Below are positions 4,108-60,170 of a DNA stretch of 64,000 nucleotides, one piece after another. How positions within the stretch are numbered: position 1 is the first letter of the stretch; each line of letters begins with the position of its first letter. This DNA comes from Octopus sinensis. Lineage: Eukaryota. A program made the position numbers and the translations under genes. The stretch is from assembly GCF_006345805.1 (NCBI RefSeq), contig NC_043009.1:25792001-25856000 (forward strand). Direction: 5' to 3'. Under the pieces are notes generated by a model. The model saw only the letters and a list, made by a program, of their open reading frames with translations. It had not been told where the DNA came from and ran no database searches.

Positions 4108-4352
4108 GAATGTATTATAAATAAACAACGACCCTGCCTCGCTTAAGCCGATCAGCTAACTGATCAACAATTTCTTTATTACAATTATAAAAATTAATAC
4201 ATAGAAAGGACGAATACAGGACATACATACATACAAGAAAATTTAAGAGAATCGATTAAAAAAAGTTTCGTTGTATTCGTTATAAGTAATAGTTTTTTCG
4301 TAACTAGTGTTACAAACACTTGTAGCTGACCTTTGTGATTATACTCGAGCTT

Positions 4353-7300
4353 TCACACCCCGGCAATTGTTGAGGCCCTGCAGCTTCCACTTCCTCTCTC
4401 TCCTCCATGGTCAAGCTGGCCTCTCGTACCCACCTTTCTTTCCACTTCCTTCCATCTATTCGCATACACTCCCCGCGGCAGGGTCCTCCTCTCCAGTCCC
4501 ATCTTGCTTCTCAGATGATATCTGAAGTAGGTGAGCAAGCCGGGCCCGGAGACAAATGACCCTGTCGCGGTTCCTTCCATTCTCGTTCTCCACATGCATT
4601 CCTTTACCACTGCAACCGTGCAGTGAAAACATGCCTCACCTTCCTTCGAGAGTCCAGTTGGCGGTATCATCTTAATCATAGACTCAGCCGACAGCTGTAC
4701 TCGTCCCAGATGCGATAACACGTGTTCTGCGTAACTTATCAAGTCGTTCAACTTCCGACAATGAAAAAAAGCGTGCTGAACGGTTTCATCGTCCAGCCCG
4801 CATCTTTGACACGTCGGTGGCACTGGAACTCCGTGCCGTGATAACTTTTCGCGAACAGGTAAAGCATTCCTGTAGCACTGCCAAGCCAGGGATCTTTGGA
4901 AATTATCCAAATACCCCGACCTGAACGTTTTCTTAAACAGATTGGCAAGCTGGTTTTCATCAAACCCCAGAGCCCCTCCTAGGACGTCATCGTTTTTACC
5001 TTCACCAGCCCTCTATAAAATACCGAGGTGGTATTTCCGCAGCCGGCCTTGCCCGCCTTGTGGATCAGCGTGAGTGCCTGTCGGCACTCCTTTTGCCATG
5101 GAGTCAGATTGCATCTTCTGATGTAACCGGGTTTAAAATTAACTAAGGAGGCCGGTCTCGGAAAAAATCCCTCTGCCAACGGACTCCACACCTTATCACC
5201 TTCCAGGTGGTGCCAGAGATGTCTTAGTCTCAACGCATGTCTGCGCATCATTAACCAAGGCATCCCTAACCCACCTTTAACGGTTCTTGACAGCACACGG
5301 AGCGTCTCACAAGTGGCTTTCCTCCTTTCCACAAAAAGCGGAAGAGAGGCTCGTTCCAACTTGTTAAGCCATGAGTCGGGGCAAGGGACGACGGTCAGGC
5401 GGTAGGTGATTACGGATGCAATAAACATCTGCGCCACCTCCGCCCTTCCTTTCAAGGACAGAGACCTTCCGGACCAGGTCCGTATTATGGCCTCCACCTT
5501 GCCGTCACCTCGCTCCAGTTCTTCTCCGTTTGGGAGTCCGGTCCAAACCAGACTCCAGCAACTTAACAGGGCCATCCGTCCAGTGTCCCACAACACTGGA
5601 CAATATCGGCTTGTTCCTCCAGGTGCCGAGGCGCAAGCCGACCGATTTGTCCCTGTTAACCTTTGCTCCTGCCACCGCCTCGTATCCTCTGATAGCCTCC
5701 TCTACACCAGGTAGTTGGGCCTCCTTGGACACGATGAGGGTGATGTCATCCGCATAGGCAGTGACCGACCTCCCACCTCCGATTCCATCTGAGTTACTCC
5801 CCAGCCTCTCCAACCTTCGCAGTAGTGGCTCGAGAGCCAATACGTACAAAAGTGGTGACAAGGGGCACCCCTGACGTACTGAACATTCGATCGAAAACGG
5901 TTCTGTTAGGTAACCGTTTATCTGGACGGTGGACTTGATGCCGCTGTACATAGCGGAGATCCACCCGCGGAATTCGGGACCCAGTCCGGTCGCTTCGAGG
6001 ACCGCCGCCAGGTACCCATGGTCTACCCTATCGAAGGCTTTACTTTGGTCCAAGTGGACCATTACCCCACCTTTGCCGGTTACTTTACCCACCCTATCTA
6101 AGGTGTAGCGTATAAGGTGAAGGTTGTCCTGGATCGACCTGCCTGGAATTGCACATGTCTGTGCTCTCCCTACAAGTTTCTCCACGACAACCGTCAACCT
6201 TTTTGCTAACACCTTGGCCAAAATCTTTAACTCTACATTAAGTAGAGTTATGGGCCTGTAGTTACTAATCATATCCCCTTTGCTCGGGTCTTTCTGGATT
6301 AGCGTCACCACTCCCCGGCTTACAGAACTGGGAATTCTCCCGTTCTGCTGCCAGTTCGTGTAGACGCCTGCCAGTATTCCCCCGAACAAATCCGGCATAT
6401 TTTGGTAAAACTCGTAGGGCAGACCATCCAGCCCCGGCGATTTCTCCCCGGCGCACTCGGCCAGCACTTCCCTTATTTCCGCGGGAGTGATCGCTCCCTC
6501 ACAGCACTCCGCTTCACGCCCCGCGAGCCGCGGCCCGCCGGCCAGGAAGTCCCTTAAGGCACTCCCCCGGTCCAGCGGGCCACCACCCCCGAACACGCGC
6601 GCGAAATGCTGGTGAAGAAACTTTTGCATCTCCTCCTGTCCATAGATCTTTTGTCCCTGTTCGCCAGTCAAAGATTTTATTGAGGCTCTGTTGCCTCTCT
6701 TACTCTCCACACGACGGGCCCATCCGGCTACGTTAACACTTCTCGTTTCCCGGCGCGCAGCTTAGCTCTGACTCTGCAACCTTCGTGTTTGGAGTCAAGG
6801 TGTCGGTACAATACCGTCCTTGCCGCCAGTACTCCGGATGCAGAGCCAGCTTCCATTGCCTCGTCTAGATTCTTAACTAAATCGCCCTCTAGACTAGCTC
6901 TATCTGTCCTTATTCTGATTGCTAAATCTAACGGACTCTAATCGAATGGCTCTTTTGAGGGCGTGCCACCATCTATTGTTAATGACGGTGCCGCACAATG
7001 CCCTCTGAACTAAATCCTTAATCCGGGTACGGAAGTCTTCACAATTCAAAATAGCCTTGTTCAGCTTCCAGTACCCGGGTCCCTGTCTATGACACTTGTC
7101 TAATTGCACCTCACACGTCACAAACTTGTGATCCGAGTAAGGTACAATATGAAATTGTGGACAACTAAACGTCCTATCTCTTTTTTTTATAATTATCCTA
7201 TCTAGGTACGATCTGTGTGAGCCGTCGTAGTTACTCCACGTCCACTGTGGAACGCTCGGCTCATCCAGTCGGTAACGGTCCACTAGATCAAAGCTCTCAG

Positions 7301-58243: not shown

Positions 58244-60170
58244 ACGCGGCTCCAAGCTATATACGTGTGTTGTGAGTTATTTTATATGTGAAAATTGAAA
58301 AAAGACGGTTAAAAGTTGTCAAAAATTGAATCGCGCGAGGCGTTTTGCCGCTGCGTGTTTGAACCTTTTATAGAAGGTGTGTCGACCCTCAAGTCATGGA
58401 GACTTACGCGGGGGTCGCCACAACAAAAAGTGACGAGTCTCTTAGAATAAGAGAAGTGTTCTTTAGAAAAGAACAATTGAAGGAATACGAGAAGTTCGTC
58501 AAAAGGGAGGGTGACAGCGTGAAGCTGGTCCCGCCTGTGGAAACAATAGAAGAGAAAAATAACATCACGATAACGTATAGAACGCAAGATAGAAACACGA
58601 GAAAACTGGTGAGAGTGACGATTGAAGAAATAGAGAAATGTCTGGGGGCATCATGAAAAAAGCGACTTTTGTAGACAGAGGAAAGAAATATGGTACGGTG
58701 GAGGTGAGATGCGCAACAAAGGAAGTGGCGGCCTCATTGGCTTCCACTGTCCTGAAAGCGGAAAATTTCACCATGTGGCCGACGTATAAAGGAAGACGAG
58801 GGGTACGGGTAAGAGTCCCAAAGGTACCCCCAAATATTAAAACAGAAATGCTGGTAACAGCCATTATTGGAGCAGCAAAAGAGGAAGTAGAAATAGGGTC
58901 AATTAAGGAGACGAACGTTGTAAATTGGAAGGGATTCGGAGTCGAGTTGTGGCTGATGGCCACAATTGAAGACATCGAAAGATTTCCCTTCCAAATAGAA
59001 ATAGAAAACGAGAAAAACAATTAGTGTAATAGTGGAAGGCAGAAAACCGAATTGCTACCTGTGCGGTTCAAGAGGGCCATAAAAAAGGAATGTCCGCTGT
59101 ATGAATTCACAGCGGAGCAAAAAGAGACACAAAGTGGAGAGAAGGAAAACGAACACGAAGGAAAGAACAGCGAAAACAAGGAAAAGGAAATAACGGAGAA
59201 ACAACAAGAGAAGGGAAGTAACAGCGCACTGAAGGAAAATGAAAACAAAGGGAAGAAGATAGTAGAAAAGGAGCAAAATTCACAGGGTGCAGAAGTAGAG
59301 GAGAAGGAGCCAAGGCAGAAGCAAAGAAAGAAAAGAAAGTACATTAAAGGAAAGAGAAAAAGCAGGAAAAGAACAAGAGAAGGAACAGAACCAAGAGAAA
59401 GGAAAAGATGGTATGCAAAAAGGAAAAGAAACAACAGGAAAGGAACTTAAGGCACAGGGTAGAGAGACGGCAGACAAAGAGTCAAAAGACAAGAGAAGGA
59501 AAAGAAAGAAGAGAAAGCAAAAAGAGAGAAAGAGAGAAACCGAGGAGGAGAAAAAAGAGGAAGTAAGTCCTAAGAGAAAAACTAGAGAAAACGCAGGTAC
59601 GAATAGAAAATTCAAATACTATGGAACGTTGATCCATCACAAGCACTGTGAGGAGATGGAAGATTTAATAAGCGAAACAAACGGATATACGTGGGTCAGG
59701 ATGGGCACCGAATGGAAAGAAACAGGTGCACTCGTCCACGAGAACGACGCCGAGGCGTTCATCGAGGCAGCTGGCGAGAACGTGTTAAAACATATGAAAT
59801 GCCGACTTCCAAGGTGGCCTCGAACGATGGAAGTTTACTCAGATTTGGTAGACATAATGGAGTATATATAAAAGAAAAGGTATTGTGAAAACTTTAATTT
59901 GGAAATGATAAAAGAACTTTAAATTCGGAAAAAAAAAAAAAAAAAGAAATGTTGAACTTTGTAAAACTTTTTGAAATGTATGTTGAAAATGTATAAAATG
60001 TTTTATTTGAAAATATTGTTGACGAATAAAAATAAATGACGAAATGTAACCGCTCGATTTCGGGGATCGAGTGGGCATTGCACCACATTGTACAAACTTC
60101 ATAATTCATTATTCATTTTCCCGATTGTATTGTCCCATCTATGTAGCCCCTAGTGGGTAATAATAAAACA
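58244..60170 (+). mobile_element. ORF1-only element, copy 2 (head-to-tail with copy 1)
   Basis: Highly similar to 56324-58243, with substitutions and indels. Confidence 0.85.
58396..59871 (+). CDS. Gag-like ORF1, copy 2, frameshifted
   Basis: Same protein in pieces 58396-58656, 58638-59024, 59052-59450 and 59413-59871. Confidence 0.75.

What the first reader, a model, noticed from the sequence alone, without database searches (positions are those of the whole stretch)
4170..60170. SINE B, the ORF1-only elements and the Tx1 LINE share a 3' tail with a fully compensated stem-loop
Seen (sense strand): LINE ...tgtcctgtattcgtcctttctatgtatt AATT-tttat-AATT gtaataaagaaat; SINE B tail1 ...tgtccttgtttgtcctctctgtgttta GCCC-cttgt-GGG(T/C) a(g/a)taaagaaat; ORF1-only ...ttgtattgtcccatctatgta GCCC-ctagt-GGGT aataataaaaca. 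All have a similar upstream tract, a 4-bp stem with a 5-nt loop, a similar terminus and no poly(A). Known: stringent LINEs recognise 3' stem-loops shared with partner SINEs, whereas mammalian L1 relies on poly(A). Inference: a three-tier Tx1 system (autonomous, ORF1-only, SINE) using structure-based 3' recognition.
Basis: partly seen in the sequence, partly recalled or inferred. Interest (0 to 1): 0.72.

Follow-up and report, generated by a model that had tools for sequence, protein, structure and literature searches.

The report
Octopus SINE borrows Tx1 hairpin tail
In this octopus DNA a common short jumping element and a half-length, ORF1-only element end in the same small hairpin motif (CUNGU loop) found at the ends of related Tx1-type retrotransposons, which likely serves as the handle their copying enzyme grips instead of a poly(A) tail, while the full element at 4170 carries a weaker, altered version and is probably not the direct partner.

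Summary
All three quoted 3' ends exist. SINE tail 1 (T1) is clearly related to the ORF1-only tail and, in a 3'-anchored test, to the LINE at 4170. The four pairs are kept (three double changes, one single), but the LINE's A-U stem alone is weak: about 4% by chance in register, +2.4 kcal/mol, and its loop differs. T1 is also internal in 9 of 10 copies. The stronger evidence lies elsewhere. The SINE has three tails (T1, T2, TA) sharing a CUNGU loop with different G-C stems. The sister LINE lineage, from one other public record, ends in the same hairpin (59 of 59 near-copy loci, 0 of 28 distant ones), and a profile built only from those tails ranks 13 of the 16 T2/TA tails first in the window. 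Best reading: an L1/Tx1-type lineage recognises a 3' hairpin without poly(A), and the SINE captured such tails repeatedly. The direct partner was not found, Tx1 membership lacks named references, and function is untested. New variant of a known kind.

The parts
4170..9432 (-). LINE1: full-length L1/Tx1-type element; ORF1 with CCHC knuckle, ORF2 endonuclease-RT-zinc finger, broken by frameshifts (some likely assembly errors)
   Evidence: near-universal one-base insertions at 4270 and 4421 in public contigs
4182..4196 (-). LINE1 terminal hairpin AATT-TTTAT-AATT (plus outer U-G pair), 13 nt before the 3' end; A-U variant with altered loop
   Evidence: 4173-4264 matched without other letters by high-depth contigs
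4153..4169 (.). 17-bp target-site duplication of LINE1 (partner copy 9433-9449)
   Evidence: empty-site continuation in all four runs
3720..10255 (.). palindromic non-autonomous DNA-transposon-like element into whose left arm LINE1 inserted; the right arm holds an empty target site
   Evidence: inverted matches; very high depth; pogo/Tigger label is recalled
2921..3131 (-). SINE B monomer ending in T1 with its own 9-bp duplication: the only terminal T1 of 10
11878..12847 (-). SINE B five-unit multimer: four internal T1, terminal T2, 18-bp duplication
15685..16466 (+). two SINE B dimers in tandem (head-core-T1 plus truncated head-core-T2)
40688..40897 (+). SINE B monomer ending in T2 (GGGC-CTTGT-GCCT), duplication of 19 bp with one mismatch
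48350..49995 (-). nested SINE B cluster in ATT runs: T1+T2 dimer, T1+TA dimer, TA and T2 monomers (TGCC-CTYGT-GGCA, TGGC-TTTGG-GCCA, AGGC-CTTGT-GCCT)
53794..54186 (+). SINE B dimer T1+T2, 10-bp duplication
56324..58243 (+). ORF1-only element a; hairpin GCCC-CTAGT-GGGT at 58219-58231; no ORF2 remnant
58244..60170 (+). ORF1-only element b, head-to-tail with a (35 substitutions, 15 indels in 1920 nt); hairpin at 60146-60158
60171..64000 (+). LINE2: second L1/Tx1-type element, about 60% RT identity to LINE1; 3' end outside the window; candidate partner, untested

Best explanation
SINE B (three tail types) and the ORF1-only elements end in a short G-C hairpin with a CUNGU loop, which also ends the sister lineage of the window's L1/Tx1-type LINEs, and the ORF2 protein of this lineage likely grips that hairpin and would start target-primed reverse transcription about 8-15 nt downstream without a poly(A) tail. 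Shown: the motif, its position, the covarying stems, its presence in sister LINEs, and target duplications of 9-19 bp. Inferred: the SINE captured tails from different Tx1-type families several times (TA, T2, T1); the T1+T2 dimer arose when a T1 monomer was joined upstream of a truncated T2 unit, so T2 or TA is the end the enzyme usually sees; the ORF1-only element is an old HAL1-like derivative mobilised in trans; LINE1's tail descends from the same tail as T1, but its family now has an A-U stem and UUUAU loop and is probably not the direct partner, which would be another family ending in a CUNGU hairpin.
For: Strict motif (three G-C pairs around CTNGT, defined after seeing the data): 17 hits in the window, all at SINE (15) or ORF1-only (2) tails; 0 in 995 kb of 95 distant loci; 0 in the reversed window; present in 59 of 59 close-relative loci with enough downstream DNA, 0 of 28 distant ones. 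A profile of 9 relative tails, with no window rows, ranks 13 of the 16 T2/TA tails first (E 1e-4 to 0.49; reversed control best 1.7). T2/TA tails score at rank 1 in 6-8 of 9 relative loci, with 0-5 of 2845 background tiles as high. Octopus RTs are sister to the hairpin-bearing clade (SH-aLRT 100, quick tree). On 12 chosen rows 47 of 48 cells pair, 3 of 4 pairs change on both sides, 0 of 500 shuffles reach the score, and slid registers give 31-54%. LINE1's duplication is 17 bp; two T2-ended insertions have 18-19 bp. ORF1-only ORF1 is 28-35% identical to both LINE ORF1s with no ORF2 remnant.
Against: No autonomous octopus LINE with a CUNGU hairpin was seen; the only octopus LINE end available has UUUAU. 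The 59 relative loci are overlapping near-copies from tandem arrays in one record, about two lineages, host not determined. T1, ORF1-only and LINE1 tails are not found by the relatives' profile. Covariation rows were picked and anchored by me and are related. None of six tails folds better than shuffles (z -0.83 to +0.77); the proposed hairpin has pairing probability 0.01 in the ORF1-only tail and under 0.1 in 5 of 17 tails at 37 C. Several TA/T2 copies end in or beside ATT runs, which also fits other LINE clades. An unclassified repeat in the other record carries the same hairpin. Octopus RTE, CR1, L2 and Dong-R4 tails were not available for comparison.
Confidence: 0.63

Rival explanations
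1. The tails are inherited from Tx1-type LINEs, but the hairpin is not the ORF2 recognition signal: it is part of a Pol II 3'-end or stability signal (U-rich tract, hairpin, AAUAAA), and mobilisation relies on linear sequence or on terminal base-pairing with the target.
For: LINE1, ORF1-only and the relatives all end just after AATAAA. Folds are no better than shuffles and an alternative long stem dominates in the ORF1-only tail. SINE ends overlap the first letters of their duplications.
Against: A tRNA-type SINE needs no Pol II signal yet keeps pairing through three stem types; TA lacks AATAAA but keeps the hairpin; other AATAAA-anchored ends do not resemble T1.
Confidence: 0.15
2. One reading: recognition is by shape alone, and the LINE1 family (4170) itself mobilises SINE B and the ORF1-only elements.
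For: LINE1 and T1 are related in a 3'-anchored test; the hairpins fall in register without gaps behind the shared tract; all four pairs are kept; the A-U stem extends into a longer interrupted stem with pairing probability about 0.8; the A-U form is a family feature, not one decayed copy.
Against: The loop is conserved in the other families and LINE1 departs at two fixed loop letters; the isolated hairpin is +2.4 kcal/mol against -2.7 to -5.1; chance in register is 3.9%; LINE1 vs ORF1-only is marginal; T1 is terminal in 1 of 10 copies.
Confidence: 0.1
3. SINE B's terminal tails T2 and TA are served by another clade (RTE, CR1/L2 or Dong-R4) that has a similar hairpin, and the match to Tx1-type tails reflects tail swapping between clades.
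For: Those clades are abundant and recently active in Octopus vulgaris (PMC13282606); known mollusc CORE-SINEs pair with CR1 or L2 (PMC4824008; PMC4758252); ATT-run ends; the same hairpin in an ORF-less repeat of unknown class.
Against: The match to Tx1-lineage tails extends over the C-rich tract and spacer, not only the hairpin; T1 is shared with an element encoding a Tx1-type ORF1; duplications of 18-19 bp are longer than I recall for CR1/L2. No other RT fragment was found in the window to test against.
Confidence: 0.12

Closest known systems
Stringent SINE/LINE pairs (UnaSINE/UnaL2, zebrafish ZfL2, BivaCORE-SINE1/CR1-14_CGi, BivaCORE-SINE2/L2)
   Same: Shared 3' tail with a stem-loop showing compensatory changes (PMC4824008 section 11; PMC3747384 Table 1); ORF2 binds its cognate stem-loop (PMC4176376 passages).
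   Different: Partners there are L2, CR1, RTE, I, Tad1, R4, RandI or plant/algal L1; no Tx1 element is in the table of 58 SINEs. The loop here is CUNGU.
Stringent L1-clade pairs: ZmSINE2/3 with LINE1-1_ZM (monocots), SINEX-3_CR with L1-1_CR (Chlamydomonas)
   Same: L1-clade LINE with a conserved hairpin, fixed loop letters and variable stem, shared with SINEs (PMC3472496 passages).
   Different: Plants and algae only; the three known L1-tailed SINEs end in T or A runs; this case is animal, Tx1-type, with no poly(A) on the ends seen.
SINEU mobilised by Tx1-Mar (crocodilians)
   Same: SINE assigned to Tx1 machinery; Tx1 elements inserted into a non-autonomous DNA transposon; tandem insertions; about 16-bp duplications (PMC4494074 parts 2-3).
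   Different: SINEU has snRNA heads and poly(A) tails, was assigned by shared target, and no LINE matched the SINEU-1 3' half; here the link is a shared structured tail.
ORF1-only non-autonomous LINEs: HAL1 (L1), HeT-A (Jockey), Ag-Sponge (CR1)
   Same: Encode ORF1 only and keep 5' and 3' ends (PMC5786205 passages; PMC5753468 passages).
   Different: Here from a Tx1-type lineage, only 28-35% identical to neighbouring LINE ORF1s, and sharing its tail with a SINE.
Octopus CORE-SINEs OR1/OR2 (tRNA-Core)
   Same: Abundant tRNA-type octopus SINE with a conserved middle; tRNA-Core is a main part of the octopus SINE complement (PMC8967140 passages; OR1/OR2 named as CORE-SINEs).
   Different: Identity with OR1 or OR2 was not tested (no reference sequence); the passages I read name no partner LINE for them.

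Membership tests
Tx1 clade (L1 group) | ORF1 with CCHC knuckle; ORF2 with APE endonuclease, RT and C-terminal zinc finger | tested here: met
   Pfam zf-CCHC, Exo_endo_phos, RVT_1, zf-RVT
Tx1 clade (L1 group) | ORF2 closest to L1 among solved retrotransposon proteins | tested here: met
   human L1 ORF2p E 3.6e-152, R2 1.8e-49; shows the L1 group, not Tx1 against L1
Tx1 clade (L1 group) | RT groups with named Tx1 references rather than with L1 proper | tested here: inconclusive
   quick tree of 51 rows holds no named Tx1 or L1 reference; distant rows include snRNA-flanked elements
Tx1 clade (L1 group) | target preference for a repeat, with long duplications | tested here: inconclusive
   one insertion in a high-copy palindromic element, 17-bp duplication; one contig in another run has the same junction; no genome-wide count
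Stringent SINE/LINE pair | SINE 3' tail homologous to a LINE 3' end | tested here: met
   T2/TA vs sister-lineage tails; T1 vs LINE1 3'-anchored; met at lineage level only
Stringent SINE/LINE pair | a partner LINE in the same genome with a near-identical tail | not testable with these tools
   no genome held; LINE2's end is outside the window; pattern scans of viral and metagenome contigs gave 0
Stringent SINE/LINE pair | stem-loop with compensatory changes | tested here: met
   3 of 4 pairs, 47 of 48 cells on 12 chosen, related rows; for LINE1 alone only suggestive (3.9%)
Stringent SINE/LINE pair | tail structure required for retrotransposition | not testable with these tools
   needs an assay
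HAL1-like ORF1-only element | LINE-derived ORF1 and no ORF2 | tested here: met
   no ORF2 hit better than E 0.11
HAL1-like ORF1-only element | independent insertions with target duplications | tested here: inconclusive
   two head-to-tail copies and LINE2 all begin with the same 5 letters; a tandem duplication or array is not excluded
CORE-SINE OR1/OR2 | tRNA-derived head with A and B boxes | tested here: inconclusive
   box-like motifs by eye; ARAGORN and Rfam call no tRNA
CORE-SINE OR1/OR2 | CORE domain and identity to the published OR1/OR2 consensus | not testable with these tools
   label recalled; no reference found

The most novel reading that the evidence does not exclude
An animal L1/Tx1 lineage uses a poly(A)-independent CUNGU hairpin conserved across RTs only 44-50% identical; the dominant octopus SINE hijacked it three times by tail capture, an ORF1-only element shares it, and the LINE1 family escaped these parasites by swapping to an A-U stem with a changed loop.
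Probability: 0.25. Interest if true: 0.8.

Novelty: new variant of a known kind. Interest (0 to 1): 0.6.

Why it matters
Ohshima proposed that L1-clade elements were once stringent and relaxed to poly(A) recognition in parallel, but the known stringent cases are plant and algal. A hairpin-recognising animal Tx1-type lineage would make that directly testable in a relative of human L1 ORF2p, whose structure is solved. It would also name the likely engine of the tRNA-Core SINEs that are a main part of octopus SINEs, and give a natural series of stem and loop variants for mapping ORF2-RNA specificity.

Tried and rejected
No genome for the window, so the proposed genome-wide test could not be run. 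A pattern common to T1 and the ORF1-only tail found 0 matches in viral and metagenome contigs; no RT relative in viral contigs. Rfam and ARAGORN found nothing in the window. Rejected: LINE1's A-U hairpin as a sequencing error or single decayed copy. Rejected: generic AATAAA context as the cause of the T1-LINE1 likeness. Single-strand folding gave no support. RNAalifold on 9 relative tails recovered the first hairpin with almost no covariation and missed the second. A sister subfamily and a second organism's contigs differ over LINE1's last 20-60 nt, but the letters were not printed, so compensation there is unknown. Shorter spacings in the other record's arrays were 5'-truncated LINEs, not ORF1-only elements. 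A T1-type pattern in that record hit only the bacterial contig at control level, and no SINE B was found there. The careful tree did not finish; the quick tree is used, with 6 intended rows dropped for lacking the motif window. A fuzzy search timed out. The atlas gave only unnamed CCHC and RT clusters. Earlier scan notes: none. The name 'Twin' for a dimeric octopus SINE is recalled and could not be checked.
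Full report
Setting. The window is octopus DNA by inference: the only homologues of LINE1's ORF1 among 1107 candidates are two Octopus bimaculoides proteins (51-58%). No genome is held. The assembly has small indel errors: public contigs nearly all carry an extra base at 4270 and 4421, so some frameshifts are probably artefacts.

Anatomy. LINE1 (9432 to 4170, minus) has ORF1 with a CCHC knuckle and ORF2 with endonuclease, RT and zinc finger, an exact 17-bp duplication, and sits in one arm of a palindromic high-copy element. 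Two ORF1-only elements (56324-58243, 58244-60170) run head-to-tail into LINE2 (60171 to beyond the window). Their ORF1 is 28% and 35% identical to those of LINE1 and LINE2 over the aligned parts, and no ORF2 remnant is found (best E 0.11). A search with the SINE's middle gave 28 hits; I dropped 2 without a recognisable tail, leaving 26 tails of three types: T1 (10), T2 (9), TA (7). T1 is followed by another SINE unit in 9 of 10 cases; the composite insertions end in T2 or TA. Only the monomer at 2921-3131 ends in T1, with a 9-bp duplication.

The observation. The quoted ends are all there. T1 and the ORF1-only tail are related (0 of 2000 shuffles under two scorings; profile E about 1e-4). T1 and LINE1 are related when anchored at the 3' end (99-117 against a maximum of 69 in 781 plus 105 AATAAA-anchored ends), though a local profile misses LINE1 and stricter scoring leaves 5-39 of 2000 shuffles. 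LINE1 against ORF1-only is marginal. The alignment puts the hairpins in register without gaps behind the shared tract, and the A-U form is a family feature: contigs of depth 4932 and 1290 match 4173-4264 with no other letters. Still, 10 of 13 hairpin letters differ, including two loop letters. A four-pair stem arises in that register in 3.9% of shuffles, and the isolated hairpin costs +2.4 kcal/mol, although a longer interrupted stem gives it pairing probability about 0.8. For LINE1 alone compensation is suggestive, not shown.

T2 and TA have the same loop as T1 with different stems: GCCC/GGGY, RGGC/GCCT, TGCC/GGCA. A scan of genome contigs returned 79 loci of 122 relatives, 64 of them tandem-array elements at 44-52% RT identity in small non-bacterial-looking contigs of one bacterial assembly, G001; I did not determine the host, and SINE B is absent from that record. 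These elements end in a C-rich tract, an A spacer, AGGC-CTNGT-GCCW, a second hairpin and AATAAA, without poly(A). In a quick tree of 51 RT rows they are sister to LINE1, LINE2 and P0001 (SH-aLRT 100). A strict motif, defined after seeing the data, is present in 59 of 59 such loci with at least 750 nt downstream, 0 of 28 distant ones, nowhere in 995 kb of distant loci, and 17 times in the window, always at a SINE or ORF1-only tail. The 59 are overlapping near-copies, about two lineages. A profile from 9 of those tails alone ranks 13 of the 16 T2/TA tails first in the window (E 1e-4 to 0.49; reversed control best 1.7) and finds no T1, ORF1-only or LINE1 tail; pairwise scoring agrees (whose background of 100 loci included 5 bacterial pieces). 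On 12 rows that I chose and anchored, 47 of 48 cells pair and 3 of 4 pairs change on both sides, above 500 shuffles and all slid registers; adding LINE1 gives 51 of 52. The rows are related, so this is not a probability. Counting decayed copies too, 95 of 104 stem cells pair in the 26 SINE tails, with the slot chosen by best score.

Mechanism. Shown: shared tails, a conserved loop with covarying stems about 8-15 nt before the octopus ends, no poly(A), and duplications of 9-19 bp where they can be read. Inferred, by analogy with L2 elements whose ORF2 binds a cognate stem-loop (PMC4176376): ORF2 grips the hairpin and primes reverse transcription at the nicked target a fixed distance downstream. 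The SINE acquired tails from different families; TA copies match the reference core less well than T1 units (72-92% against 89-100%, a reference biased to T1), which fits TA being older. The dimer looks like a T1 monomer joined to a truncated T2 unit. LINE1 shares ancestry with T1's donor but has an altered hairpin, so I expect another family to be the partner; LINE2 is a candidate, untested.

Against. No octopus LINE with the CUNGU hairpin was seen. None of six tails folds better than shuffles, and the hairpin is a minor fold in 5 of 17 tails, including ORF1-only. Several TA/T2 copies lie in ATT runs, and an ORF-less repeat in G001 has the same hairpin, so another clade is not excluded; no other RT is in the window to compare. 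Tx1 rather than L1 proper rests on architecture and recall, without named references.

Literature. Nine searches found no report of a Tx1 tail shared with a SINE or of an octopus SINE's partner; the library lacks most subscription papers and Repbase, where such a note may exist. Seen: PMC3747384 passages, outline and Table 1 (no Tx1 among 58 SINEs); PMC3472496 passages; PMC4494074 passages and parts 2-3 of 5; PMC4176376 abstract start and passages; PMC4758252 passages; PMC4824008 passages and section 11; PMC5786205, PMC5753468, PMC8967140 passages; PMC13282606 passages, its supplement listed but not read and it may bear on family names; PMC5804259 supplement searched without hits. Not seen: Ohshima and Okada 1994, Albertin 2015, Bao and Jurka 2010. 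The labels CORE/OR2, pogo/Tigger, Helitron and Penelope for window elements are recalled.

Verdict. Each tier is a known kind: stringent tail sharing, ORF1-only LINEs, and Tx1-mobilised SINEs. Their combination through a conserved CUNGU hairpin in a poly(A)-less animal L1/Tx1-type lineage appears unreported in what I could search. New variant of a known kind; interest 0.6.

Noticed in passing
G001 small contigs (L081-L143, L146, L165, L167): A bacterial assembly holds hundreds of kb of animal-type DNA: head-to-tail arrays of intact L1/Tx1-type elements with 6.4-6.8 kb period; 69 of 77 hairpin-pattern hits are in these contigs. Their tails have a second hairpin with varying outer pairs just before AATAAA.
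   Followed up: partly
L166:3500-4090: ORF-less 286-bp tandem repeat ending in a C/A tract and GGC-CTTGT-GCC; could be a SINE-like user of the same machinery or another class.
   Followed up: partly
L012, L017, L148, L153, L156, L159 3' ends: Distant Tx1-like elements share a long conserved, apparently structured tail; L148 and L156 end directly before U1 snRNA genes in U1/U2/5S clusters; L158 ends in poly(A) before U2 sequence.
   Followed up: no
window 4170-4190: A LINE1 sister subfamily (15 substitutions and 9 gaps over 4190-4384) shows no listed difference in 4190-4231 but departs in the last 20 nt; letters not shown.
   Followed up: partly
window 55790-56323: AT-rich element starting after a TA run, resembling a non-autonomous Helitron 5' end (recalled), directly precedes the ORF1-only/LINE2 cluster and may be its target.
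   Followed up: no
window 54540-55472: 310-aa frame with a GIY-YIG-like C-terminal part, probably a Penelope-like fragment (recalled; Pfam gave only a weak SIR2 hit).
   Followed up: no
window 44214-45593 and 23128-24168: TA-bounded elements built of 489-bp and 312-349-bp units in direct and inverted copies.
   Followed up: no
window 3332-3719, 20914-21311, 34922-35324, 39908-40288, 51032-51468: A second abundant dispersed repeat of about 390 bp with an internal CA/GT run; no CUNGU hairpin tail by the strict motif.
   Followed up: no
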